Part shown: positions 7,624 to 27,536 of the stretch, in pieces
Numbering within the stretch: position 1 is the stretch's first letter
How the letters are laid out: every line of letters begins with the position of its first letter
Source of the DNA: a virus
IMG/VR virus record: IMGVR_UViG_3300035034_002228
Coordinates: 17,796-81,795 of that record
Strand: one strand, 5' to 3'
DNA length: 64,000 bases
Made by a program: the position numbers and the translations under genes
Notes under the pieces: generated by a model
What the model was told of the DNA's origin: nothing
The model's database searches: none
What the model saw: only the letters and a program-made list of their open reading frames with translations

Positions 7624-9681
7624 ATGACTACACCGCAAAAGATTTCTGATCTGCAAATCGCCGGTCAGGTTAAGAACGACGATTACGTTGAAGTAATCCA
7701 ACGCAATGCCGAGGGCGACTACGTCAACATGCGTTTGGCGATCAATAACCTCAAAGGCAAAGACGGCAAGTCGGCGTTTCAATTGGCCAAGGACGACGGG
7801 TTTACCGGCACCTTTAACGAATGGCTTCTGTCCCTGCGTGGCCCGGAAGGCAAAAACCCGTTTGACATGGCTCAAGCCGGTGGGTTCACCGGTACTCAAG
7901 AAGAGTGGTTGGCGTCTTTGGTAGGGCCTCAGGGCGCTCCGGGTCCCCAAGGTGAAGCAGGTCCGCAAGGCCCGGAAGGTTCTGTGGGACCGACCGGCCC
8001 TGCCGGTCCGAAAGGCGAAGCCGGTGATGCGGGTCCCGTCGGTCCCAAAGGCGAGGTTGGTGACGCTGGCCCAGCGGGCCCGAAAGGCGACGTAGGTCCT
8101 GCGGGACCGGAAGGCCCTCAGGGTGAAACGGGTCCGGCTGGTCCCATCGGACCTGAAGGCCCAGAAGGCCCCCAGGGCACTCAAGGTCTCAAAGGGGACC
8201 AAGGGGAACCTGGCCCGACGGGTCCGACGGGTCCAGTTGGCCCCAAAGGGGATCGTGGTCTGGAAGGTCCAGCAGGTCCGGAAGGTCCGCAAGGCGAACA
8301 GGGCGAAATGGGTCCAGGCATTAGCATTGTCGGGACACTGACGGCTGAATCCGAACTACCCGACACCGGCACGCTGGGTGAAGGTTATTTGGTCAACGGC
8401 GAGTTCTGGGGTTGGACCGGCACTCAGTACGAAAACCTAGGACCCATTCGTGGTCCTAAGGGTGAACAGGGTGTTCAAGGACCCGCTGGACCGGAAGGGC
8501 CCGAAGGCCCGCAAGGCGACATGGGACCCGAAGGTCCGGCTGGCGCTACCGGTCCCAAGGGTGATAAGGGTGACGCTGGCACAGTCGGGCCGAAAGGCGA
8601 CGTAGGCCCTGCCGGCCCTGAGGGTCCCCAGGGTGAACAGGGTGTTCAAGGTGAGAAAGGTGACAGTGGTGACCCCATTCAAATCCTGGGTACCGTCGCC
8701 GATCAATCTCAGCTTCCCTCCACCGGTGTTTCTGCCGGCCAGGGTTACGTCATTGGCACCAATCTGTGGGTGTGGGACGGTGCGGCGTGGTTTAACGCCG
8801 GCAGCTTGAAAGGTCCTCAAGGTGAACAAGGTCCGATGGGCCCTGCCGGTGTCAAGGGTGACGACGGTGCTCCAGGTCCTCAGGGTCCTGAAGGTGCTCA
8901 GGGTCCCCAAGGTAACACCGGCCCTGCCGGTCCGACTGGTCCTAAAGGTGATACTGGCGACGCCGGTCCCGCCGGCCCTGAAGGCCCTGCCGGATCACAA
9001 GGCCCTGCTGGCTTTGATGGCGCCGATGGTCAGTCCGCGTATCAGATTGCCGTGGACAATGGTTTCACAGGCACTGAGGCCGAATGGTTGACCTCACTGG
9101 AAGGCGAAGACGGTGTCGGGTCGGCACTGTCCATCGCGAATAACGGCACGGCTGTTACCGCCGAGGCGAAATCCATCAACTTCAAGGGCGCCACGGTTTC
9201 TGAAACCAACGGTGACGTTACGGTTGAAGTGTCGGCCAGTAGCGGTGGGTCAACAGGCGGTGTAAGCCTCGTACGCAAACGCGCGGTGTTGATGCGCGGG
9301 TCCCTGGAGGCGATTGTCATTGTGGTTGGGTTTGGTTCTCAGACCGACATGGACGCCCTGACCATTGAAAAACTGAACAGCGGCAGTGTGGTACGTCTGG
9401 ACAACAAAGCCGCTGCGCTCCACTTACATTCTGTGACCATATTTTATGATGCAGGATGGAACACCGGTAGCTCGTTCAATCTTCAATTCCCGGACAACTG
9501 GGGTGATGATTTCATGGGCGACATGGTGATCCCCACGTTCCAGCAGTTCTCTCGGTTGAATCCGCCGACACTGCAACCGACGACTTACCAGAACTACGAA
9601 GTCGTTGATGGTTACGTGAATGTTGGTAAAGCCAACGTTAACTCCAGCTACGGATATCACTGGAAGTACAACTTGTCGTAA
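7624..9681 (+). CDS. Collagen-like fibre protein (685 aa)
   Basis: KISDL N-terminus, SA(F/Y)..A...GFTGT..EWL.SL modules, long Gly-X-Y runs broken by two W.WxG..N.G modules, globular C-terminus. Confidence 0.88.
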
Positions 9682-11615: not shown

Positions 11616-12383
11616 ATGGCTAAGCGTATTACGGAAATGGGCCCGATTGAACTTCCACTCTCCGGAGAAGAGCTGTTGGAAGTGGTTCAGAACGGTGTCA
11701 ACAAGCGGTTCCCGATCGGGGAACTGACGGTTCAAGGTAACGACGGGCTATCGGCATTCGATGTCGCGGTCCGTGAAGGCTTTGAAGGTACTTTGGAAGA
11801 CTGGTTGGCATCATTGCGCGGCCCAGAAGGACCAGTGGGTCCACGGGGACCACAGGGCGTTGAGGGACCGAAAGGGCCCAAGGGTGACACTGGCAACGAT
11901 GGTCCGGCTGGACCCAAAGGAGACGCAGGGCCGGAAGGACCCCAAGGGGAACCAGGACCCGAAGGACCTGAGGGGCCCAAAGGTGAGAAAGGCGATACCG
12001 GTGATACTGGCCCAACCGGACCTAAGGGCGACAAAGGTGATAAGGGTGATACGGGTGACCCCGGCCCAGTTGGACCTGAGGGACCATCAGGTGGAGGTGG
12101 TGGTAGTAACTTTGTAACCATCCAAGCCACCAGCTGGAGTGCGGGACAGTTTACCTTGCCTGAAGGAGTAACGGTCGAGAAGATCTACTCGGACAGCTCC
12201 CTGCAAATCAACCATGGGCAGAACAAATACCCGAAGGGTTGGTTTGGGTTCATTCGAGAGTCGGACCCTTGGGTAGGTATCATCCCAACCAACGTTCGGA
12301 ACATTCAAATCGTCGATGCGAATACGATCATTATCACAAACGTGTCCAGCTTCGAAATCTTTGATATTTCCATTCAGTTTTAA
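11616..12383 (+). CDS. Short collagen-like protein
   Basis: KRITEM N-terminus, [20 protein letters not shown] module, about 30 Gly-X-Y triplets, globular C-terminus. Confidence 0.85.
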
Positions 12384-12915: not shown

Positions 12916-15900
12916 ATGTCAGGAAACGAAAGAAGGTATCGGTTCCCTCGCGGTAATACCGAACAAAACAACAGTTATACCGGGTACGATGGGGAAGTCA
13001 CCATCGATACCGAACTCAATCAACTGCGTCGTCACGACGGCGTAACCCCCGGTGGTTTTGTCATCGCCTCCGGCGGTGGCGGTGAGATTGGGGATGTCAG
13101 CGAACTGATCGACACCGGCATTCTTGTCGTTGGTACGCTGTCCACCCCCGACAATCTTCCGGAAGCGTGGGAACATTCCACCGGTGATACATACATCATA
13201 GACACCCACTACTACACCCTGATCGGCAACACCTGGGAAAACCTCGGGTCGTTCCGTGGGGAAGACGGCCTGAACGCGTACGAACTGGCCGTGACCCGTG
13301 ATGGGTATACCGGCACGTATGGTCAGTGGAAAGAAAGCCTGCGTGGACAAGACGGCATTGGCATCAACGTCCGTGGCTCGCTGCCGAATCTTGAAACACT
13401 GGATTTGGTGGAACCGGTCCGGGGTCACGCGTACGTGATCGATCGGAAGATGTACGTTTGGGACACCCAGAAATGGGCCGAGGTGGGGCAAGTTGGTCCC
13501 CCCGGGATGAGCACTTACGAGTTGGCCAAGGTCACCGGTCAAATCGAAGAGTCCACCACCCTGACGCAGTACCTCAACTCCCTCAAAGGGCAAAGTGCGT
13601 TTCAGCTGGCGCGGGAGATTGAAGAAATCCCGTCGAACTGGGGCCTTGAAGATTACCTCGAATCCCTGCAAGGCAAAAGCGCGTACGACATGGCCGTGGA
13701 AAACGGCTACGTTGGGACGATTGACGACTACCTTGCCTCGCTGGTAGGACCTGAGGGTCCCCAGGGTCCCCGTGGTCTACGCGGTGATAAGGGTGAACAA
13801 GCCAACGCCATTCAGGTGTTGGGTAAGGTGGTGTCTTATCTGGACCTTCCAACCGAGGGCGTGTCTCCAGGTGACGCGTATTTCATCCAGAAGAACCTCT
13901 GGGTCTATACAGGCTCGCGTTTTGAAGACCTGGGTGAGATTGTAGGGCCACAAGGTGAACAGGGCTTACAAGGACCCTCAGGCCCTCCTGGGGACCAAGG
14001 TCCCGAAGGGCTGAGCGCGTACGAAGTGGCCATCAACAACTACCTGTTCGACGGCGACGAAGAAGCGTGGATTGCGTCCCTGGAAGGGAAGAGCGCCTAC
14101 GAGATTGCCAAAGAGTTCGACTACGGTAATGAGATCGAAAGCGAGGAACAGTGGCTGGAGTCATTGAAAGGCAAGAACTCGTATGAGACCGCCATTGAAC
14201 TTGGCTTGGTGGCTACGGTTGAAGAGTGGAATGAGAAGATGCGTGGTCCGGAAGGGCCGATGGGTCCTCAGGGTCCCATGGGTCGCAGTCTGGAGATTTC
14301 CGGCTACGTTCAAGACCCCGATGCCCAACCACTGCCAACAGACGTCTCCCCGTACACCGCGTACGTGGTTCAAGATCACCTACACATGTTCACCGGCACC
14401 GAATGGGTCGACCTTGGACGCTTTGAAGGTCCCAAGGGGGACAAAGGCGATAAGGGTGACAAGGGCGATACCGGTGAGAAAGGCGAGGTTGGTACCGGCA
14501 TTCAGGTAAAAGGCGCCGTAGCCTCTGAATTGGCCCTACCCAACATCCAAGACTACGTCGACGGTGACTGTTTCTTCGTTGAGAAGAACCTCTACGTGAA
14601 AACCGGCGGTCTGTGGTTGAACGTTGGGGAAGTGAAAGGCGATCAAGGGGAAAAGGGCGAACAAGGTGACCAAGGTCTGACTGGCGACCGTGGACCACGT
14701 GGCACCAACGGTCGAAACGGTCGCAGTGGTCGGAACGGCCGCAACGGCTTGCATGGTTGGAACGGGCGTAATGGCCGGACTGGTCGTCAAGGTCCCATGG
14801 GCGCGCCCGGTCCGCGTGGGTTTACCGGTTCGCCGGGCGCGTCCATTAAAGTGAAAGGGTCGGTACCGGCGGTGAGCTTCTTGACCGACCAAGGGAACGA
14901 GGTCGGTGATGCGTACATCGTCGAGAACGAGTTCCATGTGTGGGATGGCACACAGTGGACCAACGTAGGATTCCTACAGGGCCCTCGCGGTGTGGACGGC
15001 CCCCGTGGTCTGCAGGGTCCCGTTGGACCGATGGGGGTGAAAGGCGACCAAGGCGTTCCTGGCCCACAAGGCATCGAAGGGGTGCAAGGCTCGGACGGTC
15101 GTCAAGGTCCCATGGGCCTGTCTATCAATGTCCTGGGTCGTGTCTCTACCTTTGCGAGTCTGGACGCCAAGTCCCGACCGTCGTTTGGCGACGCGTACAT
15201 CGTCGACGATACCGAGGGTGAGGTTTACGCGTGGGACGGCGAAGCGTGGCAGGGTCTGGGTCCGGTCCAAGGTCCCGAAGGACCTCCTGGTCCAATCCCT
15301 ACCCCACGTGGTGTAGCGGTTGACCCGGATTACCTGTTCAATCAAATCCTGAACCCGAAGAAAGGCGATTTCTACACCATCGCGGGTGAAGCCTGGATTC
15401 ATGACGGTGAGACGTTCATCAACGTCGGTCAGTGGACCGGACCCGAAGGTCCCAAGGGCGACAAAGGTGATCAAGGCGAAAAGGGTGACGCGGGGGATGA
15501 CGGCCACGGCATCATCGTTCTTGGCGAACTGGGTGATGTAAACGACCTACCCTTGACCTCCAGCCGTGGGGATTTCTACGTGGTCACCGGTGACCTGTGG
15601 GGCTGGGACGGCGCCCGTTGGGTTAACTACGGTCCTTTCCGTGGTCCCACCGGACCGGCTGGACCAAAAGGCATTGATGGCATCGACGGTGTGGATGGCA
15701 TCGACGGTGAACAAGGCCCGCAGGGTGAACGCGGTCTGCAAGGCGAAACCGCCGCCAGCATCAAGGTACTGGGCTCGAAAGCCACCGTGGGCGAACTGCC
15801 GGACGGCAGCACCAGCGAGGTCGGTGATGCGTACATCGTCGGTGACCGATTCTACGTGTGGAACAGTGCCATTTGGGAAGACGTTGGCTTCCTGCAAGGC

Positions 15901-17502
15901 CCTCGTGGCATTCAGGGCGAACAAGGTCCTCGTGGTCCCACAGGTCCGCAAGGTCGGGCTGGTGAGCAGGGACCGCAAGGTTCTACCGGCGCACAAGGCC
16001 CTGTGGGTGCGGAAGGTCCTCAGGGTGAGAAGGGCGATACCGAAGCGGCCATCTACGTCATCGGTAGCCTGGAAAGCAGCGTTGCCCTGCCCACCACGGG
16101 CAATGAACGCGGCGACGCGTACATCATCGACCAGAGCTTCTGGGTCTGGGACGGTGCTGAATGGAGCGATGTCGGTTTCATTCACGGTCCGAAAGGGGAT
16201 CGGGGGGATACCGGTCCTGCCGGTCCGCAAGGTCCGTTAGGCCCACGTGGGATTCAAGGTCCTCAGGGTGAACAAGGCCCAGAAGGTGAGAAAGGTCTCC
16301 AGGGTCCCATGGGCATTTCCATCCGAATCATCGGCAGTCAGCCGACCATCTCGGACATTCCGGACCGTCAGCACCAAGTTGGTGACGCGTACATCATCGA
16401 TGGGGTTGTGTACACCTACGATGGGTACAGCTGGATCGACATTGGCCAGTTCCAGGGTCAGCGTGGTCCTCAGGGCCCCAGTGGTCTGGACGCCTACGAA
16501 ATGGCGGTCAATAAAGGATTCACTGGCACCTTTGAAGACTGGGTGGAATCCCTGCGCGGTCCACAAGGCGATGCCGGTGCGGGACTCACGTTCCTAGGCA
16601 TCCTGGGTGACGCTGAGGAATTGCCGACCACCAACAACATGAACGGGGACATGTACCGCAAAGGTCCACACCTGTATGTTTGGGTCGACACCGCCTGGAA
16701 GAACATGGGCATCATACAAGGCCCCCGTGGTGACGAAGGTCCCGAAGGTCCTGCCGGCCCCGAGGGTCCGCAAGGGATGCGTGGCCCACAGGGTACCGCC
16801 TGGCTGTCGTTCGAACGTGATCCGGACACCCTGGACGGTTTGAAGGGCGACTACGCGATCAACACCATCACCAACGACTACTTCCTCAAGGTGGACGAGT
16901 TCCTCTGGGTGAAGCTCGGCCGGATGGGCGGCGGTACCGTGGAAGAAGCCCCGACCTCCGGTGGGCGTTACGTTCGTGCCGAAGGTGGCTGGAAGCCACT
17001 CAAGGAAGGTGTGACCGAAGCGCCAGTGAACGGCGAAGCGTACATGCGTATCGACGGGACGTGGACGCTGTACAGACCACCGATCGTTGACGTAGAAACC
17101 AGCACCCCGCATCACCGTGTGAAGGGTTCTTGGGTCCCGGTTGAGCTGACGGACGCCCCGGTGGACGATCAAACCTACTTCCGTCGTAATAAGAAGTGGG
17201 TGCCGTTCAACCGGTACACGTTGAAGAACGAAAGTGTCGATACGGTGATGGACCTGTCCATTGCCCAGACCTTCAACATCGCAGCCACTCGCGATAAGGC
17301 ATTGTCGTTTACCAACGCGCCGGGCGCGGATCGCACCATGACGGTGGTAGTGACCATCGCCGGAGACGGCGGTATCATCACATGGCCGGACAGTGTGTTC
17401 TTTAAGGACGAAGTACCGCCAACATTGGGCACCAACTACACCGTGGTGGTCATGTATTGGACGGGCTCGATCTGGATCGGGAAACTGATGGAAGCCATTT
17501 AA
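12916..17502 (+). CDS. Giant modular collagen-like fibre protein (1528 aa)
   Basis: Mtd_N-like start (RG..EQ...YTG..GEVTIDT....[11 protein letters not shown]); 13-14 GDAY...WDG..W.NVG modules; 8 SAYE.A modules; Gly-X-Y runs; 4 foldon-like repeats; fibre-type C-terminal domain. Confidence 0.9.
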
Positions 17503-17556: not shown

Positions 17557-18168
17557 ATGGACACTTACATTAATTTGACAACGGGACAATACCCACTGAC
17601 CTTGGAGGAAATACGGCGAGAGCTTTTGACCGTATCCCTACCAAAAGCCCCCACCGAGGAACAGCTTCGACGGTGTGGCTATGGGTTGGTGAAACCGACC
17701 AAACGCCCCGCCGGTACCAACGTGGTGGGAACAGCCCCACGGTATCAGAACGGGCAGTTTTACCAAACTTGGGAGGTGGTGGAGAGTGCGGATTTGGGCG
17801 AGTGGCAACAAGAGCTTAAACGGTTGCTGGATACGACCTACAACACCCTGTTGACTCAGGGATGGACGTACGGTACTCACCAAGTCGACCTTGTCAACAG
17901 TGAGGAACTGAATTGGTTTTTCTTAGAGTGCTTATCGTCACAAGACGATCACTCGGACGAGCCGGTTTTGTTTTATACGCCCAATGGCGATGCGGTGGAG
18001 TTTGACTGGGAGACAGGATTGCAATTCGTCAAGGACGCGGTGCGGTATCGACGTTCGTTGAAACGCGGGTACCACCACGGACTTACGCACATTCGTGAGT
18101 GCGAGTGTGTGGCGGATTGCAAATCTGTTAAACGCAAGTTAGAAACAAAGGAAGTCTTCCAATGTTAG
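17557..18168 (+). CDS. Hypothetical tail-fibre-associated protein
   Basis: YINLTTGQYP..IR...VSLP and P....G.FYQTWEV resemble small fibre-accessory proteins. Confidence 0.65.
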   Translation: MDTYINLTTGQYPLTLEEIRRELLTVSLPKAPTEEQLRRCGYGLVKPTKRPAGTNVVGTAPRYQNGQFYQTWEVVESADLGEWQQELKRLLDTTYNTLLTQGWTYGTHQVDLVNSEELNWFFLECLSSQDDHSDEPVLFYTPNGDAVEFDWETGLQFVKDAVRYRRSLKRGYHHGLTHIRECECVADCKSVKRKLETKEVFQC

Positions 18169-19313
18169 AAACGTTACTAGGGGCCGCTGGCAACAGCACA
18201 CCCGGCGTCTCATTCACGGTCACCCCACGGGCAAGTTCGTTCAACGCCGGCAACGCCGTGGAGTTTACCATTCAACCAACGGACCCCATTCCAGGGTTTG
18301 TCTACAGTTGGTCGGTGGGTGGTTCAATCGACCCCGAACTCATCGACGGGCCGACCTCGGGCACGTTCAGTTTTAGTGACACCGAATCGGTCACGGTCTC
18401 GGTCACCACGCTGATTGACGAGTTTAAGGACACGGGGGAAACGCTGATCCTGAACATTCACCCGTCTGAAACCAGCAGTTCGGTGGTGGCGCAATCCATT
18501 CCCGTTAACATCATTTATTCCAGTCACCCCACTGGGAGTCACCTTCAAGTGGCTACCGGTACACGCCAATGGGTCGTCCCAACGGACGTCACTAAGATCA
18601 GTGCGGTGTGTATCGGTGGTGGTCAAGGGGCGAACTATACCCGGCGTGGACCAGGTGGTGACGGCGGTGATTTACGCTGGCGGAACGACATCCCGGTGGT
18701 GCCAGGGGAAACCCTGACGCTGGAAGTCGGCGCCGGTGGTTTAAACAGTGCCGATTTGGCCACCCGCCAAGGCGGTACGACCCTCATCAAACGGGGCGAC
18801 AGTGTACTGCTCGCCGCTGGTGGGGGCGGCACTACCGACAGTGTTGATTTCACCGACACCATTGGTGGTGGTAATGGAGGTCAGGGTGCCGACGGTGGCG
18901 AGAACGGTCCTGGCGGCGGTGGCGGTGCCGGCGGATACTCCGGCGACGGTGGTGATGGCGGTAACGCGGTCATTGACGCTCTGCCTGGGGAAGGCGGTGC
19001 TGGCGGTGGCGGTGCCTACTACTTTACCGAAAGCAACAACAGCCATCACGCTACGCCAGGTGGGGGTGTTGGTCTTTATGGTCAAGGCAGTAGTGGTACG
19101 GCCGGTACCCGTAACGACACCATGACTGCCGGTGGTGGCGGTGGCTCCGGTGGCGACGACGGGACCTGGATCGTGACGGGTCTCTACGGGGCCGGGGCAC
19201 GCGGTAACTCCTCCAACAACTACTTCGGGGCCGTAAACGGAGCCAACGGGGCGGTTCGTTTAATCTGGGGACCCGCCCGAGAATTCCCGAACAACAACAC
19301 AGCCGACCTCTGA
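18162..19313 (+). CDS. Glycine-rich domain virion protein with N-terminal Ig-like region
   Basis: WVVPTDVTKISAVCIGGG start, many GGGG tracts and GANGAVRLIWG end are typical of phage glycine-rich domains. Confidence 0.8.
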   Translation: MLETLLGAAGNSTPGVSFTVTPRASSFNAGNAVEFTIQPTDPIPGFVYSWSVGGSIDPELIDGPTSGTFSFSDTESVTVSVTTLIDEFKDTGETLILNIHPSETSSSVVAQSIPVNIIYSSHPTGSHLQVATGTRQWVVPTDVTKISAVCIGGGQGANYTRRGPGGDGGDLRWRNDIPVVPGETLTLEVGAGGLNSADLATRQGGTTLIKRGDSVLLAAGGGGTTDSVDFTDTIGGGNGGQGADGGENGPGGGGGAGGYSGDGGDGGNAVIDALPGEGGAGGGGAYYFTESNNSHHATPGGGVGLYGQGSSGTAGTRNDTMTAGGGGGSGGDDGTWIVTGLYGAGARGNSSNNYFGAVNGANGAVRLIWGPAREFPNNNTADL

Positions 19314-20078: not shown

Positions 20079-20175
20079 CTACCAATATTATGTGAGTTAA
20101 CACTCACACTGAACATGGCCGAGCCTTGAGATTTTCTCTTCGGTCATTCACAACATGCAATTGGAGTTTTACCCC

Positions 20176-20727
20176 ATGCTGATTAATACTTCGAAGTCTG
20201 CCGAAAAGAACTTGATCGACCTGATCAACGCTGACAACGGCACTGCACTGACTTCCGCTGAAATCTCCATCGGCGTTCCTGCCGTATGGGACGAGCTGAC
20301 CGACACTGGCAGCGACACTGGTAACGACCGTAACACCAAAGTAACTGTTTCTGCTGTCGCTAACAGCGGTTACAAGGACTCTGTTGACATCCGTTACTAC
20401 CGTCTGGACCTGGACACTCTGCGTGGCGGTGTTTCCCTGGAGCACACCAAGTCTGAGGCGTCAACTGTTCAGTCCGTTATCGATGCGATCGCCACTCAGG
20501 TTGATCTGATCGAAACTGAACTGGCCCTGTTCGACGAAACCGGTACAGAGCTCAGCTCGCTGGTGGCTCTGAGCGAGCCCAAGGTATACACTGTTCGCGC
20601 CAAAGCGGACAGCGTGTGCTACATCGGTCAGATGGACGTTACCATCAACCCGATCCCGGTACCTGAAGTTCCGGTCGGTGATGAAGTGACCACCACTGAC
20701 ATGAGTGGTTTCGAATACCCGGCGTAA
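20176..20727 (+). CDS. Virion protein of the YxRxDL paralogue family
   Basis: GGAG RBS before ATG 20176; LIDLIN, RNT, YYRLDL, SVCYIG; C-terminal VTTTDMSGFEYP. Confidence 0.8.
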   Translation: MLINTSKSAEKNLIDLINADNGTALTSAEISIGVPAVWDELTDTGSDTGNDRNTKVTVSAVANSGYKDSVDIRYYRLDLDTLRGGVSLEHTKSEASTVQSVIDAIATQVDLIETELALFDETGTELSSLVALSEPKVYTVRAKADSVCYIGQMDVTINPIPVPEVPVGDEVTTTDMSGFEYPA

Positions 20728-23807: not shown

Positions 23808-25592
23808 TTATTTAGGGTCGTAGTGGAACAGAACCGTGCCGGTAAACCACGAGTCTGGGTTTGCCCGGATGGCGTACACCCGTGAGAAGCGTAAGGCGTT
23901 GGCCTCGTCCACCGTGTCGTTGGGTAAGACGTACCGCATCACCGTCAGACCTTTCAAGCCGTTGGGTTCAGTATGTGGGATGGACGTGTCCAACTGCATG
24001 TCGTGAACGCGGTTGTAGTGGTCCACCAAAGCGTTCAGTACTGGGGTGTGTTTGTCCACCACCGCCCCACTGGGCAGGTCTTCAATCTGGTTCTCGTAAT
24101 GTCGACCGTAGTCAAACCCCCAACCAGTGAAGGTCAGGTACGGCTTGGTGTCCACTGGTTCGGATACAAAGCGTGGGTCCCACACGTAACCGTCGATCGC
24201 ATCGGTTTCAAGTACTTGATCGAGTTCTCGCTCACCAGGGTTCCAAATGAATTCCAGATGCCCCAAATACGTGAGTGATGTGTCCAGTACATTCAGTCGT
24301 TGTGGGTTGGATGACGGACTGAAGGTTTTCGTTTCGAAATCTTCCGGAATAAACTGGGTACCGAACTCTTCGTTGTAGAGATCCAACAACTGATCGCTGG
24401 TTAACCGGTTATTTTCGGTCCAGCGACGGAATACCACCTGACGGTGCTTGAAGAAGTTCTCCAGCACGATCCGACGGTAGTATAGGGTAAGCTTGCCTTT
24501 AAGACCGGAGTCGCGGCCGTGCCAGATGTCGATTTCGGTATTGACCGTTTGGTACTTGAAGTCCGGTTGATTCACCCGAGGGTTATCGTAGGCGATTAGA
24601 ACAATACCGGAACCACCCGACTGTCCTCTAGTGTACTTACTGGTGCTTTTACCGGCACCACCACCACCGGTGCCGGCAGTGCCTGCGCTCACGGAGTTGA
24701 CCGTTCGACCGTCACCCCCGCCACCTTTACCGCCGTATTTTTTAGTATGAACATACCCTGACGCACCGCCACCGGCAAACCACGCGTCGTCATTGATGAT
24801 TTCACCGTGGTCCAAACCGAAGACATCGGAAAAACGGTACTCATGGCCGTAAGGACCCATGTCGGGGGTCATACAACATAAACCGTCGCCACCGTTCCCG
24901 CTTTCAGGGCCTGTTTTATACCCGTCTTCTCCGGCGCCACCACCACCTAACGATTCATTGGCGTTACCCGTTGGGTCGAAGCCCCCGGGGTTACCAAAAC
25001 CGTAAAGCCCGCTCAAGCCAAATTGACGGGGTTGGAGTTCACGGCCCTGTCGGTAACCAACAACACTTGTTGAATGGTCGTGTGCAAAACCACCACTAGA
25101 CCCACCTGGGTGTCCTTGTGGGTCTACGAAATCACTGTCCCCACCGGTACCGCCGCCGAGACCCACCAGGCTGTTACCAAATTTGGAGGGCTGTCCTTGC
25201 GGTTCGGGGTTGTCACCGCCATTGGCGCCACGCCCAACTGCTATTTGGTTGAGACTTTCAACGGGGTGATTCGGGACAAACACCAAACCACCGGCACCAC
25301 CACCACCACCATCATGGTTGATAGTTCTTAGCGGCCCGCCACCGGCACCACCACCGCCAACAACGAGAACATCGACGTTCGTGACGCCCCGTGGGGGCAC
25401 CCAAACATGGTCTCCGATGTCAGTGAATGCCTTAACTACCCGATGCGACTGATTGTAACGAAGCGACGGGTACGGCTTTGGAGTACCCAACCGGGTGTTT
25501 TCAAGGGTGCGAAGGTCAATCCCAGTGTTGGGGTTCGCTTGGTTGATCAAATCGATCAATAATTGATTGGGTTTCTTTTCATAAAAGGCCAT
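23808..25592 (-). CDS. YxRxDL-family protein with an inserted glycine-rich domain
   Basis: MAFYEKKP..LLIDLIN.AN start, about 290-aa Gly-rich insert, then NTEI...YYRRI, SLTYLG and C-terminal VLFHYD. Confidence 0.82.
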   Translation of the reverse strand: MAFYEKKPNQLLIDLINQANPNTGIDLRTLENTRLGTPKPYPSLRYNQSHRVVKAFTDIGDHVWVPPRGVTNVDVLVVGGGGAGGGPLRTINHDGGGGGAGGLVFVPNHPVESLNQIAVGRGANGGDNPEPQGQPSKFGNSLVGLGGGTGGDSDFVDPQGHPGGSSGGFAHDHSTSVVGYRQGRELQPRQFGLSGLYGFGNPGGFDPTGNANESLGGGGAGEDGYKTGPESGNGGDGLCCMTPDMGPYGHEYRFSDVFGLDHGEIINDDAWFAGGGASGYVHTKKYGGKGGGGDGRTVNSVSAGTAGTGGGGAGKSTSKYTRGQSGGSGIVLIAYDNPRVNQPDFKYQTVNTEIDIWHGRDSGLKGKLTLYYRRIVLENFFKHRQVVFRRWTENNRLTSDQLLDLYNEEFGTQFIPEDFETKTFSPSSNPQRLNVLDTSLTYLGHLEFIWNPGERELDQVLETDAIDGYVWDPRFVSEPVDTKPYLTFTGWGFDYGRHYENQIEDLPSGAVVDKHTPVLNALVDHYNRVHDMQLDTSIPHTEPNGLKGLTVMRYVLPNDTVDEANALRFSRVYAIRANPDSWFTGTVLFHYDPK

Positions 25593-25643
25593 GCCTAATA
25601 CCCTTCGCATTCGTGGGGGTGGTTTGACCCACCCCCGTGTGAA

Positions 25644-26567
25644 TTACTGAACCAGCTTGGTCGGATCGAACACATCGTTGTAGTGCAGGTACATATCACC
25701 CGGCGGTGTGTCCACATCCGAACGCAGACGAATGCCCAAGACGTACTTATGCGACTTGTTGGTTGGTAACGCCTCGTCGTTGATACCACTGGCAATGATT
25801 TCGGCACCATGCAGACTCCACGCGGTGGCAACCGGGTCCAGGTTCCACAGCATCTTACCACTGCCGGTATCGATTTGCTGAATGGCGTCCAACAACGCCG
25901 TGTCGGTTTCGTCCACCACGTACTCGACTGGGTACGTTTCCAGCACGTCTTTCACTTCAGTGAAATCCAAAGAGTACATGTAAACAATGGCCGAGCCACG
26001 GGTACCGTCGTCGTTCTCAACCGGGTAGTCCAGACCTGGTAGAACGTCTTCGGTCATGAAATCCTTAAACTCGCCACGCCCTTCCTTGTGGGTCAACTGC
26101 AACGTACCGTACCAACGCAGTGACGTGTCTGTCGCGTGGATCTCGTAGATCGGGTCTTCGAGTTCGTTATCGTTGATGCGCACCAGTGGTTCATCGATGA
26201 TGTCTTCGGGGTCGATGATGATCCCGAACCGCAGCCAAATGGCCCGAATGAAATCATGCGTTGTCTGTGGCTGGTACACCTCTACCGTCATATCCACCAA
26301 CTTGGCCAGATCCGCCAAATTCAGACGGTCGTAAACCACAATCACCGTACCGTTGTAGTCTAGGCTGTCTTCGGTAGTGGTCATGCGAATGATTGTGTTC
26401 TTGTCGGTTGTCCCGGCTCGCCACGTATCCACCACCCGGGCCGGGGGTGAAAACATCACGTGATTGGAATTCATGTTAACGTTATTCGTGTGGGCAATGA
26501 ACTCCACCAACGCCTGATGGGAACTTCGATGTAAAGCCGCAAGGTTGTGAAACTGAGTGTCTTTCAT
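25644..26567 (-). CDS. YxRxDL-family virion protein
   Basis: YDRLNL, SLRWYG, LPGLDYP, DFT, MYLHYN. Confidence 0.82.
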   Translation of the reverse strand: MKDTQFHNLAALHRSSHQALVEFIAHTNNVNMNSNHVMFSPPARVVDTWRAGTTDKNTIIRMTTTEDSLDYNGTVIVVYDRLNLADLAKLVDMTVEVYQPQTTHDFIRAIWLRFGIIIDPEDIIDEPLVRINDNELEDPIYEIHATDTSLRWYGTLQLTHKEGRGEFKDFMTEDVLPGLDYPVENDDGTRGSAIVYMYSLDFTEVKDVLETYPVEYVVDETDTALLDAIQQIDTGSGKMLWNLDPVATAWSLHGAEIIASGINDEALPTNKSHKYVLGIRLRSDVDTPPGDMYLHYNDVFDPTKLVQ

Positions 26568-26576
26568 GCTAAGTCC

Positions 26577-27536
26577 TTACCGGTTGTAGTGGAAGTAAAG
26601 GTTACCAACGCCCCACGGACAGTCGGGTGGACATTCCAGAATGATCACGTAATTATAGAACTCCGCGTTGGCTTCTGGGTAGTTGCCGTTTGGCAGCGAT
26701 GTGTGAACGATGCCGAAGCCACTGAAATTGAACGGCGTGGTGCGATAGTCGTCAGCGTCGTTCCATGTCATGGTTGGAGTAACTCCCAACACCTCTTCGA
26801 ACACATGAGCGACGTCCTGTAAGAACCGATCATGAAATTCGTCGTCCCAGTTGTAGCCGATGTGATACCGACGGGTTTGCTGCCAGTCGTATGTATTGTT
26901 GAAATATTCCAGTGAGAAGTCCCGATCGTAGGTTACCGGTGTTAGGTACACCTTACGCTGTTCCGGGTCGGTGAAATCACTACCGCCAGGATAGTAGATA
27001 CCCACGGTTTCGTCTTCGGTAACGACGTCTTCCAATCCACGACGCCCAGACATCCAGTTGTACGCAACGCTTCCAACGTAAATGTAAGAATCAGTGAAGG
27101 CCCGCATGGTGTACAGTCGACCTTCATTGGCACCGTAGTAAGCGGTCATGTTCAGGTTCTGGATCTGTGTCTCATCCAACAGCAACCCGTACTGTTTAGA
27201 AAACAGTGGGAGAATATCGTAGAGAGTCGCAATTACTTGCCCGTTGTCGCCGGTGCCGTCGCTGCCTGGGAACCATTTCTGAATCCGAGGTGTGATGCCC
27301 CAGAACAGACGACCCAGGTCCAATCTGCGGTACGTCAGTACGATGTTGCCAAAGTACGGCGCCGTTGGGTGGGCGAACAATCGGATTTCGCTGTTGTGTC
27401 CCTCAGGGGTTTCAGTAATCGCAACCGGGTCCATGAACTCGTAATCGGTAGCGTTAATCGGGAACGGCAACTGCGGGTTTGCTTCGTTGATCAAATCAAC
27501 AAGCATTTGCTTGGGTGTTTTATCGTAGAAAAACAT
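26577..27536 (-). CDS. YxRxDL-family virion protein
   Basis: LVDLINEAN, YRRLDL, SYIYVG, LYFHYN. Confidence 0.82.
   Translation of the reverse strand: MFFYDKTPKQMLVDLINEANPQLPFPINATDYEFMDPVAITETPEGHNSEIRLFAHPTAPYFGNIVLTYRRLDLGRLFWGITPRIQKWFPGSDGTGDNGQVIATLYDILPLFSKQYGLLLDETQIQNLNMTAYYGANEGRLYTMRAFTDSYIYVGSVAYNWMSGRRGLEDVVTEDETVGIYYPGGSDFTDPEQRKVYLTPVTYDRDFSLEYFNNTYDWQQTRRYHIGYNWDDEFHDRFLQDVAHVFEEVLGVTPTMTWNDADDYRTTPFNFSGFGIVHTSLPNGNYPEANAEFYNYVIILECPPDCPWGVGNLYFHYNR

What the first reader, a model, noticed from the sequence alone, without database searches (positions are those of the whole stretch)
16939..17208. Four tandem T4-foldon-like repeats capping a giant natural collagen
Seen: [62 protein letters not shown] and [21 protein letters not shown], shortly after the last Gly-X-Y run. 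Known: the T4 fibritin foldon is [23 protein letters not shown], a C-terminal trimerisation nucleus that engineers fuse to collagens. Inference: a natural collagen-foldon fusion whose stacked foldons nucleate C-to-N folding of a ~1300-aa fibre; a possible source of new trimerisation tags.
Basis: partly seen in the sequence, partly recalled or inferred. Interest (0 to 1): 0.7.

Follow-up and report, generated by a model that had tools for sequence, protein, structure and literature searches.

The report
Foldon-like repeats in phage collagen fibre
A fibre protein of a giant phage, built from short collagen stretches, carries near its far end four copies in a row of the small 'foldon' unit known from phage T4; this is one case of a common phage-fibre repeat whose copy number varies, and a further knob follows it.

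Summary
Their likeness to the T4 foldon is real. Pfam Fibritin_C scores above its cut-off on the C-terminal 233 aa. PDB foldon chains are the only sequence matches to this stretch. A repeat profile built without the window's copies scores 50.6 bits against at most 9.2 in 1000 shuffles.

Three qualifications:
- **Not a cap.** A conserved 97-aa beta-sandwich knob follows the repeats, and a 45-aa beta module plus GGG separates them from the last collagen run.
- **Not a giant collagen.** Only 390 of 1528 residues lie in Gly-X-Y runs.
- **The third copy is degenerate.**

In 48 relatives the same slot holds 1 to about 13 copies in steps of about 22 aa. Relatives with one copy carry as much collagen. 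Arrays of up to 15 copies occur in fibres without collagen.

I read the repeats as a variable-number, foldon-homologous trimeric shaft unit. They are not a special folding nucleus. The trimer itself could not be tested, because the complex predictor was unavailable. The family is common (183 phage records), and this scan has noted such arrays before on other DNA. Interest is modest.

The parts
12916..17502 (+). ORF of 1528 aa: segmented collagen-like virion fibre protein (PHROG 3904 'tail fiber protein')
   Evidence: phrog_3904 E=0 (1118.5 bits); Pfam Collagen E 8e-45
12940..13068 (+). N-terminal Mtd_N-like attachment domain (aa 9-51)
   Evidence: phmmer to Bordetella phage Mtd 1yu0_A, E 2.4e-4, aa 9-51 vs 6-48. 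Pfam Mtd_N 16.3 bits, below its cut-off of 26.3
13120..16800 (+). Shaft (aa 69-1295): 12 Gly-X-Y runs of 4-23 triplets alternating with 13 copies of a ~45-aa beta module (I.V.G...LP....GDAYiv...yvWdG..W..vG) and helical SAYE..A..G..G...W..SL.G motifs
16801..16935 (+). Last, divergent beta module (aa 1296-1340) ending in GGG. It separates the final collagen run from the repeats
   Evidence: aligns with the 12 other modules; pLDDT 91-93
16939..17001 (+). Foldon-like repeat 1 (aa 1342-1362)
   Evidence: 11.1 bits; hairpin
17011..17073 (+). Foldon-like repeat 2 (aa 1366-1386), the best copy
   Evidence: (18.0 bits)
17083..17142 (+). Foldon-like repeat 3 (aa 1390-1409), degenerate: it lacks the E-A-P and D-G motifs and has His in place of Tyr, but keeps R, G and W
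   Evidence: -2.3 bits; still modelled as a hairpin. It is degenerate in the same way in P0003 and P0004
17146..17208 (+). Foldon-like repeat 4 (aa 1411-1431)
   Evidence: 8.7 bits; phrog_9687 'fibritin neck whisker', E 2.3e-4, on this copy
17209..17502 (+). C-terminal beta-sandwich knob (aa 1432-1528) plus stop codon. It is the most conserved part of the family
   Evidence: pLDDT 91-94; Pa223 gp52 knob, Z 8.9, rmsd 2.4 A, 89 aa
17557..18168 (+). Downstream 203-aa gene (phrog_4998, function unknown). It is conserved next to the fibre gene in Noxifer, 4MG and RSL2 and may be an assembly factor or partner

Best explanation
The ORF encodes a homotrimeric, segmented collagen-like fibre of a Noxifer-like jumbo myophage.

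Its parts, in order:
- An Mtd_N-like N-terminus anchors it to the virion.
- The shaft is a string of short collagen triple helices, separated by small beta modules and helical motifs.
- The distal end is a GGG hinge, four foldon-homologous units of 21-24 aa, and a 97-aa beta-sandwich knob.

Each unit is a beta-hairpin that keeps the residues which, in the T4 foldon, make the trimer contacts. I infer that the three chains form one foldon-like three-hairpin layer per unit. The four units would then be a short stack of trimer clamps that holds the chains in register and spaces the knob from the shaft.

The unit is a modular shaft repeat whose number varies, so it tunes fibre length rather than serving as a unique terminal nucleus. 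Trimerisation and folding probably start in the C-terminal knob-plus-repeat region, with each collagen run also helped by its own adjoining module.

Shown: homology to the foldon, hairpin prediction, copy-number variation, domain order. Inferred: trimer layers, clamp and spacer role, order of folding, position on the virion.
For: Homology to the foldon:
- Pfam Fibritin_C scores 24.7 bits (cut-off 21) on the foldon part of the profile.
- The best PDB sequence matches are foldon chains.
- 10 of 10 related array proteins hit Fibritin_C, with E from 7.2e-32 to 2.2e-7.

Signature residues: the consensus of 89 repeats is x-[ED]-A-P-x-D-G-x-x-Y-x-R-x-[ND]-G-x-W-x-x-[LVI]. E/D is at 94%, A 89%, D 81%, G 69% and Y 93%. 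P, R and W were fixed by my seed pattern. The T4 foldon, as printed, fits every conserved position.

Structure: the AlphaFold2 monomer shows four hairpins at model residues 57-66, 81-90, 104-113 and 125-136. Foldseek places a copy on 1avy, 4ncw and 1rfo at 1.0-1.2 A over 20 columns with 55% identity.

Modularity:
- In 48 proteins (47 relatives and the window's own) that have both flanking anchors, the linker is quantised at about 22 aa. The counts are 5 proteins with 1 copy, 16 with 2, 7 with 3, 14 with 4, and one each with 5, 6, 7, 10, 11 and about 13.
- Of 152 relatives, 62 have both collagen and repeats, and 21 have arrays of 5 or more copies without collagen, up to 15 copies.

The chain must be trimeric because it contains collagen triple-helix segments (established knowledge).

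Knob: Z 8.9 to the Pa223 gp52 C-terminal knob and Z 8.2 to the Solidus gp83 C-terminus. Both stand above unrelated rows at Z 4.7 or less.

Fibre identity: phrog_3904 at E=0; 183 phage records share the C-terminal module; Mtd-like N-terminus.
Against: - No test of the trimer was possible.
- pLDDT in the repeat region is only 67-79 and pTM is 0.43.
- Foldseek E-values for the foldon matches are 3-4, because the matches are short.
- The best whole-model Foldseek hit, Pa223 gp52 (E 3e-4, 220 columns), has a continuous triple beta-helix where the repeats lie. The copies might therefore intertwine rather than form discrete layers.
- Copy 3 lacks most signature residues.
- On the whole protein, Fibritin_C is below its cut-off at 18.2 bits.
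- The position on the virion is not established. In phage 4MG the orthologue lies between the major capsid and head-fibre genes.
- The strong conservation of the knob across phages of different hosts is unusual for a receptor-binding tip.
Confidence: 0.68

Rival explanations
1. First reader's reading. The four stacked foldons are the C-terminal trimerisation nucleus, and the whole fibre's collagen zips up from them in the C-to-N direction.
For: - The foldon signature residues are kept in copies 1, 2 and 4.
- At least one copy is present in all 48 proteins (47 relatives and the window's own) that have both anchors.
- Engineered collagen-foldon fusions exist in the PDB (1nay_A appears).
- The foldon is needed for fibritin trimerisation in T4 (recalled, not from a call).
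Against: - The repeats are neither terminal nor next to the collagen. A 45-aa module lies before them and a 97-aa knob after.
- Copy number runs from 1 to about 13 without relation to collagen content. P0068 has 1 copy and 137 triplets, and P0011 has 13 copies and 48 triplets.
- Each collagen run has its own flanking module.
- The knob is better conserved than the repeats.
Confidence: 0.15
2. The repeats are foldon homologues, but in tandem they form one continuous, intertwined triple beta-helix or beta-spiral shaft rather than discrete foldon-like layers. The model is the middle domain of the Pa223 capsid spike.
For: - Foldseek's top hit for the 233-aa model is Pa223 gp52 (E 3e-4, probability 1.00, 220 columns).
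- The Pa223 preprint (passages read) describes gp52 as a triple beta-helix followed by a knob.
- Linkers between copies are only 2-7 residues.
Against: - The rigid-body alignment to gp52 holds only for the knob. VIA aligns model 137-233, and the whole-model rmsd is 20.6 A.
- The foldon's inter-chain contact residues are kept, which argues for foldon-like packing.
- No sequence match to gp52 appears among the best 60 of 118 PDB matches.
Confidence: 0.22
3. The protein is a neck or head fibre (a whisker, like T4 fibritin) and not a tail fibre. The repeats then sit at the free end of a whisker.
For: - In phage 4MG the orthologue lies between the major capsid protein and a 'head fiber protein' gene, upstream of the neck genes.
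- Two PHROG 'fibritin neck whisker' families hit copy 4 weakly (E 2.3e-4 and 0.002).
- The nearest solved knob belongs to a capsid spike.
Against: - In the window and in Noxifer the gene lies among tail-fibre-like and baseplate-type virion genes.
- The N-terminus resembles that of the tail-fibre protein Mtd.
- The 'tail fiber' names in the records are annotations, not tests.
Confidence: 0.2
4. The likeness to the foldon is convergent or due to chance. On this reading these are merely short Trp-containing hairpins.
For: - Single copies are too short to reach significance alone. The Pfam table lists 0 stretches that pass on their own.
- Foldseek E-values are 3-4.
Against: - Summed Fibritin_C scores reach E 7.2e-32 in array proteins.
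- The real sequence scores 50.6 bits against at most 9.2 in 1000 shuffles.
- Nine signature positions agree with the T4 foldon.
Confidence: 0.03

Closest known systems
T4 fibritin (gpwac) foldon; Pfam PF07921 Fibritin_C; PDB 1aa0, 1avy, 1rfo
   Same: The 20-residue core and its signature are the same: E-A-P-x-D-G-x-x-Y-x-R-x-D-G-x-W. The predicted hairpin matches, and both sit in a trimeric phage fibre.
   Different: T4 has one copy at the very C-terminus after a coiled coil. Here there are four copies (one degenerate) in tandem, internal to the chain. A collagen/beta-module shaft precedes them and a 97-aa knob follows.
Pseudomonas phage Noxifer gp138 'putative tail fiber protein' and PHROG 3904. 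The same C-terminal module occurs in Ralstonia RSL2 ORF158 and in fibres of Vequintavirinae (4MG gp067, GAP31).
   Same: - The architecture is the same: collagen runs, 45-aa modules, a GGG motif, foldon-like repeats, a knob beginning DRYTL, and a conserved downstream gene.
- Noxifer also has four copies.
   Different: - Identity is only 37% over the C-terminal 233 aa, and there is no DNA-level match.
- 4MG has two copies and RSL2 about three degenerate ones.
- This protein is longer: 1528 aa against 1013, 875 and 1186.
Engineered (Gly-Pro-Pro)10-foldon (PDB 1nay) and other foldon fusions, including the double-foldon spike 8wro
   Same: A collagen triple helix and the foldon share one chain. 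The tandem double foldon is the best PDB sequence match.
   Different: These are man-made, with the foldon fused directly to the C-terminus. The natural protein puts a 45-aa module and GGG between collagen and repeats, and a knob after them.
Pseudomonas phage Pa223 capsid spike gp52 (PDB 9ny6; bioRxiv 10.1101/2025.06.11.659172, passages read)
   Same: Both are trimeric, with a beta shaft followed by a ~95-aa C-terminal knob. Knob to knob: Z 8.9, rmsd 2.4 A, 89 residues.
   Different: Sequence identity is 8%. gp52 has no collagen. Its shaft is described as a triple beta-helix, and it is a capsid decoration.
Collagens with a C-terminal trimerising knob or domain: C1q/BclA type (recalled) and the multiplexin collagen XV/XVIII trimerisation domain (PDB 3n3f, 9bnb)
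   Same: A small non-collagen domain lies directly C-terminal to a collagen run. The 45-aa module and the last module align to 3n3f and 9bnb over 43-48 of 53-57 residues, at Z 3.5-4.5.
   Different: The Z scores are low and identity is 6-19%. No C1q or TNF chain appeared among the 50 entries listed. Homology is not shown.

Membership tests
T4 foldon (Pfam PF07921 Fibritin_C, foldon part) | Match to the Fibritin_C profile above the curated cut-off | tested here: met
   The C-terminal 233 aa score 24.7 bits against a cut-off of 21, E 2.7e-5, on profile 66-90/93. On the whole 1528-aa protein the score is only 18.2 bits, below the cut-off.
T4 foldon (Pfam PF07921 Fibritin_C, foldon part) | Signature residues E-A-P..D-G..Y.R..G.W | tested here: met
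   Copies 1, 2 and 4 keep 8-11 of 21 positions identical to the foldon printed (my count by eye). Copy 3 keeps only R, G, W and V.
T4 foldon (Pfam PF07921 Fibritin_C, foldon part) | Beta-hairpin conformation of the monomer | tested here: met
   The AlphaFold2 model has four hairpins at pLDDT 67-79. Foldseek gives 1avy_B, 4ncw_A and 1rfo at rmsd 1.0-1.2 A over 20 columns, but at E 3-4. This is a prediction only.
T4 foldon (Pfam PF07921 Fibritin_C, foldon part) | Three hairpins around a three-fold axis (autonomous trimer) | not testable with these tools
T4 foldon (Pfam PF07921 Fibritin_C, foldon part) | Single copy at the extreme C-terminus of a coiled-coil whisker | tested here: not met
   There are four tandem copies at aa 1342-1431 of 1528. 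A 97-aa domain follows, and collagen and beta modules precede instead of a coiled coil.
PHROG 3904 / Noxifer gp138-type collagen-like fibre | Full-length profile match and shared C-terminal module | tested here: met
   phrog_3904 scores E=0, 1118.5 bits. tblastn gives 37% identity over 98% of the 233 aa, E 1e-44, to Noxifer. The domain order is the same.
PHROG 3904 / Noxifer gp138-type collagen-like fibre | Conserved downstream partner gene | tested here: met
   BLASTP of the 203-aa product against the downstream genes gives E 2e-16 (Noxifer), 2e-8 (4MG) and 7e-7 (RSL2).
Collagen triple helix (Pfam PF01391) | Uninterrupted Gly-X-Y runs that match the profile | tested here: met
   E 8e-45 with 11 stretches. 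There are 12 runs of 4-23 triplets, 390 residues in all.
Tail fibre (location on the virion) | Attachment at the baseplate or tail | not testable with these tools
   Only annotation names, an Mtd-like N-terminus and gene context are available. The context in 4MG points to the head/neck module.
TNF/C1q-like C-terminal knob | Jelly-roll knob fold shared with TNF/C1q chains | tested here: inconclusive
   The nearest structure is the Pa223 gp52 knob (Z 8.9). Its authors call that knob a TNF fold (passages). No TNF or C1q chain is among the 50 entries listed.
Multiplexin (collagen XV/XVIII) trimerisation domain | Fold match of the 45-aa module | tested here: inconclusive
   3n3f scores Z 4.2-4.5 and 9bnb Z 3.5-4.0, covering most of the target, from two separate models. 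GVE2 ORF18 N-terminus scores higher (Z 6.0), and many unrelated small domains score 3-4.

The most novel reading that the evidence does not exclude
The T4 foldon may be a lone copy of a widespread, expandable 'foldon repeat' of about 22 aa. Stacked as three-hairpin layers, it would build a class of trimeric fibre shaft for which I found no natural solved structure or published description, with 1 to 15 or more layers added in quantised steps. In this fibre every structural element would bring its own trimer register: collagen run plus 45-aa module, foldon layers, knob. The four diverged copies would then be independent, mutually non-identical natural trimerisation units that could replace the T4 foldon in engineering.
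Probability: 0.45. Interest if true: 0.55.

Novelty: new variant of a known kind. Interest (0 to 1): 0.35.

Why it matters
The T4 foldon is the standard trimerisation tag of structural vaccinology and collagen engineering. Papers that turned up in my search report that antibodies against it are an unwanted side effect (PMC13766278 and PMC11602707; I saw only the search listing and the start of each abstract).

If each natural copy trimerises by itself, families like this one offer hundreds of diverged foldon units.

For phage biology, the finding shows that the foldon is a repeat family used as a length-adjustable shaft element. It also shows how a long collagen-like fibre can be assembled from many short, separately registered pieces.

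This particular instance is one ordinary member of a common family: 183 phage records and 519 representative clusters. The scan has reported such arrays before on other DNA.

Tried and rejected
- I mistyped the reading frame and corrected it.
- **DNA match.** Megablast of the gene against the phage collection found nothing.
- **Word-indexed protein search.** It gave only 5 relatives among 1094 candidates. The exhaustive search was needed.
- **Trimer prediction.** Complex prediction for a trimer of the C-terminal 233 aa was unavailable.
- **Repeat versus 45-aa module.** hhalign of the repeat profile against the module profile gave probability 22.5% and P 9e-4 over 15 columns. That is not enough to call the two homologous.
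- **A wrong first count.** My first copy count, with an 8-bit threshold, suggested 54 relatives with no repeat. Reading those sequences showed degenerate copies. The anchor-based count then found at least one copy in all 48 proteins with both anchors. I dropped the zero-copy claim. The other 105 of 153 proteins lacked one or both anchors, being fragments or having a different C-terminus, and were not counted.
- **TNF/C1q membership of the knob.** No such chain is among the 50 entries listed.
- **DNA tandem repeats.** There are none in 16939-17208. All 7 rows lie in collagen-coding DNA.
- **Earlier notes of this scan.** Look-ups by sequence and by place returned nothing. The look-up by words gave three related notes.
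- **Literature.** I found no paper that describes natural tandem foldon arrays or natural collagen-foldon fibres. This covers only the held library.
Full report
**What is there.** They are residues 1342-1431 of a 1528-aa ORF, 12916..17502 (+). The window is part of an 81.8-kb virus record judged 27% complete. Its genes match jumbo-phage families: a 753-aa major head protein (phrog_3231), an RNA-polymerase subunit family, and paralogous virion proteins. The closest named relative of the fibre's C-terminus is Pseudomonas phage Noxifer (278 kb), at 37% identity over 98% of the last 233 aa. There is no DNA-level match in the phage collection.

**Is the likeness to the foldon more than chance?** Yes.
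- Pfam Fibritin_C hits the last 233 aa at 24.7 bits (cut-off 21), on the foldon part of the profile (positions 66-90 of 93). On the whole protein the score is 18.2 bits, below the cut-off.
- The best PDB sequence matches are chains that carry the T4 foldon. First is an engineered spike with two foldons in tandem (8wro_A, E 1.4e-4). Natural fibritin 1avy_A follows at E 0.026.
- A profile built from 80 repeats of other proteins scores the real 233 aa at 50.6 bits. The maximum in 1000 shuffles is 9.2 bits.
- That profile finds nothing else among 614 open segments of the window.
- The consensus of 89 repeats, x-[ED]-A-P-x-D-G-x-x-Y-x-R-x-[ND]-G-x-W-x-x-[LVI], agrees with the T4 foldon at every conserved position. 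P, R and W were fixed by my seed pattern; the other positions were not.
- Copies 1, 2 and 4 score 11.1, 18.0 and 8.7 bits. Copy 3 scores -2.3 bits and has lost the E-A-P, D-G and Tyr positions. It is degenerate in the same way in the two closest relatives.
- The copies are old. They share 3-9 of 21-22 residues pairwise, and there is no DNA repeat at this place.

**Anatomy of the protein.** Only 390 of 1528 residues lie in Gly-X-Y runs of four or more triplets. There are 12 such runs, the longest with 23 triplets. Between them lie 13 copies of a ~45-aa module (I.V.G...LP....GDAYiv...yvWdG..W..vG) and several helical SAYE..A motifs. The N-terminus resembles the N-terminal domain of the Bordetella phage tail-fibre protein Mtd (E 2.4e-4).

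After the last collagen run comes a fourteenth, divergent module ending in GGG (aa 1296-1340). The four repeats follow, and then 97 further residues.

AlphaFold2 was run as a monomer with a 22-sequence alignment. The flanking module and the last 97 residues have pLDDT above 90. The repeats come out as four beta-hairpins at pLDDT 67-79.

The C-terminal domain aligns with several trimeric phage fibre and spike domains:
- the C-terminal knob of the Pa223 capsid spike gp52 (Z 8.9, rmsd 2.4 A, 89 residues);
- the C-terminus of an Acinetobacter phage tailspike (Z 8.2);
- further phage fibre and spike domains at Z 6-7.6. Unrelated rows score 4.7 or less.

The Pa223 preprint describes gp52 as a trimer with a triple beta-helix and a TNF-fold knob (passages read). 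So the repeats neither cap the protein nor touch the collagen, and 'giant collagen' overstates a mosaic fibre.

**The repeats are a variable-number unit.** An exhaustive profile search found 519 representative proteins at E 1e-3 or better. Among the 152 relatives I could read, 85 have collagen runs, 98 have at least one repeat at 8 bits or more, and 62 have both. Another 21 carry arrays of five or more repeats, up to 15, with no collagen at all.

Those arrays sit in proteins with other ends: a T4 gp9/10-like N-terminus, a YadA-type stalk, or an endosialidase chaperone domain. All 10 of 10 that I scanned hit Fibritin_C, with E down to 7.2e-32.

In the 48 proteins (47 relatives and the window's own) that have both the GGG anchor and the start of the knob, the stretch between them is quantised in steps of about 22 aa. 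Five proteins have one copy, 16 have two, 7 have three, and 14 have four (this protein among them). One each has 5, 6, 7, 10, 11 and about 13 copies.

My first count suggested relatives with no copy. Reading them showed degenerate copies below my threshold, so I withdrew that claim.

Collagen content does not follow copy number. P0068 has one copy and 137 triplets, P0089 has one copy and 128, and P0011 has 13 copies and 48. This protein has four copies and 130 triplets. Noxifer gp138 also has four copies. Phage 4MG has two, and RSL2 about three degenerate ones.

**How it most likely works.** The collagen segments make the chain a homotrimer. I infer that each repeat contributes one hairpin per chain to a foldon-like three-hairpin layer. 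The four layers would clamp the chains in register and set the distance between shaft and knob. Copy number would then act as a length adjuster.

In the T4 foldon, the conserved Glu and Arg form an inter-chain salt bridge and the Trp forms the core. I recall this from the foldon NMR and crystal papers; it comes from no call. The same residues are kept here.

A role in starting trimerisation is plausible for the whole C-terminal region, knob plus repeats. But the data do not single out the repeats, and each collagen run has its own neighbouring module.

A serious alternative is that tandem copies merge into one intertwined beta shaft, as in Pa223 gp52, which was Foldseek's best whole-model hit at E 3e-4. 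The tool that could have tested a trimer was unavailable.

Where the fibre sits on the virion is also open. The names in the records say tail fibre, and the window's neighbours are fibre-like and virion proteins. In phage 4MG, however, the orthologue lies between the capsid and head-fibre genes.

**The 45-aa module.** Modelled alone it gives pLDDT 93.5, with four strands and a short helical turn. Its best structural match is the N-terminus of the Geobacillus virus E2 ORF18 (Z 6.0). The trimerisation domains of collagens XV and XVIII come next at Z 4.0-4.4, covering most of those small domains. The last module in the other model matches them too, at Z 3.5-4.5. This fits a picture in which each collagen run has its own registering domain, but the scores are too low to claim it. 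A profile comparison of the module with the foldon repeat was inconclusive (probability 22.5%).

**Compared with what is known.** The foldon homology is already visible to Pfam. One relative, P0006, carries a precomputed Fibritin_C hit. The whole protein belongs to PHROG 3904, and 183 phage records share the C-terminal module. BFVD holds 212 structural look-alikes at E 1e-3 or better.

By sequence, no natural tandem array appears in the PDB. For an array protein, the matches listed (the best 60 of 74) are T4 foldon chains or T4-type gp10 N-termini, and the only tandem is engineered.

Six literature searches found no description of natural foldon arrays or natural collagen-foldon fibres. This holds only for the library on hand.

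Earlier notes of this scan reached the same reading on other phages. One concerns a segmented collagen-like fibre with a foldon in a PVP-SE1/GAP31-type phage. Two concern fibritins that end in six foldon copies.

**Verdict.** The protein is a new member of a common family. As a kind, it is a variant of the known single terminal foldon. Interest is modest.

Noticed in passing
window 13120-16719 (13 copies) and 16801-16935: A ~45-aa beta module follows almost every collagen run. AlphaFold2 gives pLDDT 93.5. The best fold matches are GVE2 ORF18 N-terminus (Z 6.0) and the collagen XV/XVIII trimerisation domains (Z 3.5-4.5). No Pfam family covers it.
   Followed up: partly
window 17557-18168: A 203-aa gene (phrog_4998, no Pfam hit) lies directly downstream of the fibre gene. 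It is conserved in that position in Noxifer, 4MG and RSL2 (E 2e-16, 2e-8, 7e-7). It may be an assembly chaperone or a partner of the conserved knob.
   Followed up: partly
window 14638-14844 (aa 575-643): The longest collagen run (23 triplets) contains an unusual Arg/Asn-rich stretch, [28 protein letters not shown] 27-base DNA repeat underlies it at 14707-14765. It is kept in P0003.
   Followed up: no
window 13270-13746, 14017-14244, 16492-16560: A helical motif recurs: SAYE.A...G(F/Y).G(T/S)...W..SL.G. It replaces the beta module at some collagen junctions.
   Followed up: no
window 7624-9681 and 11616-12383: Two further collagen-like proteins (685 and 255 aa) lie in the same gene cluster. 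Neither has foldon-like repeats, and their C-terminal domains differ.
   Followed up: partly
window 18162-19313: A 383-aa protein with a glycine-rich domain (Pfam PF21722, E 1.8e-10; phrog_4474, E 4.3e-66). Its start overlaps the stop of the 203-aa gene.
   Followed up: no
window 20155-20727 (+) and 23808-27536 (-): Four paralogous 'virion structural proteins' of phrog_1037. A similar run of paralogues lies beside the fibre gene in Noxifer.
   Followed up: no
L002 (Escherichia phage 4MG) 2931-5558: The orthologous fibre gene lies between the major capsid protein and a 'head fiber protein' gene, upstream of the neck genes. The 'tail fiber' label of this family may therefore be wrong for some phages.
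   Followed up: no
proteins P0033, P0046, P0054, P0067, P0053 (metagenome relatives): Fibre proteins without collagen carry 10-15 foldon-like repeats. They have other ends: a T4 gp9/10-like N-terminus, a YadA stalk, an endosialidase chaperone, or a phage tail tip domain.
   Followed up: partly
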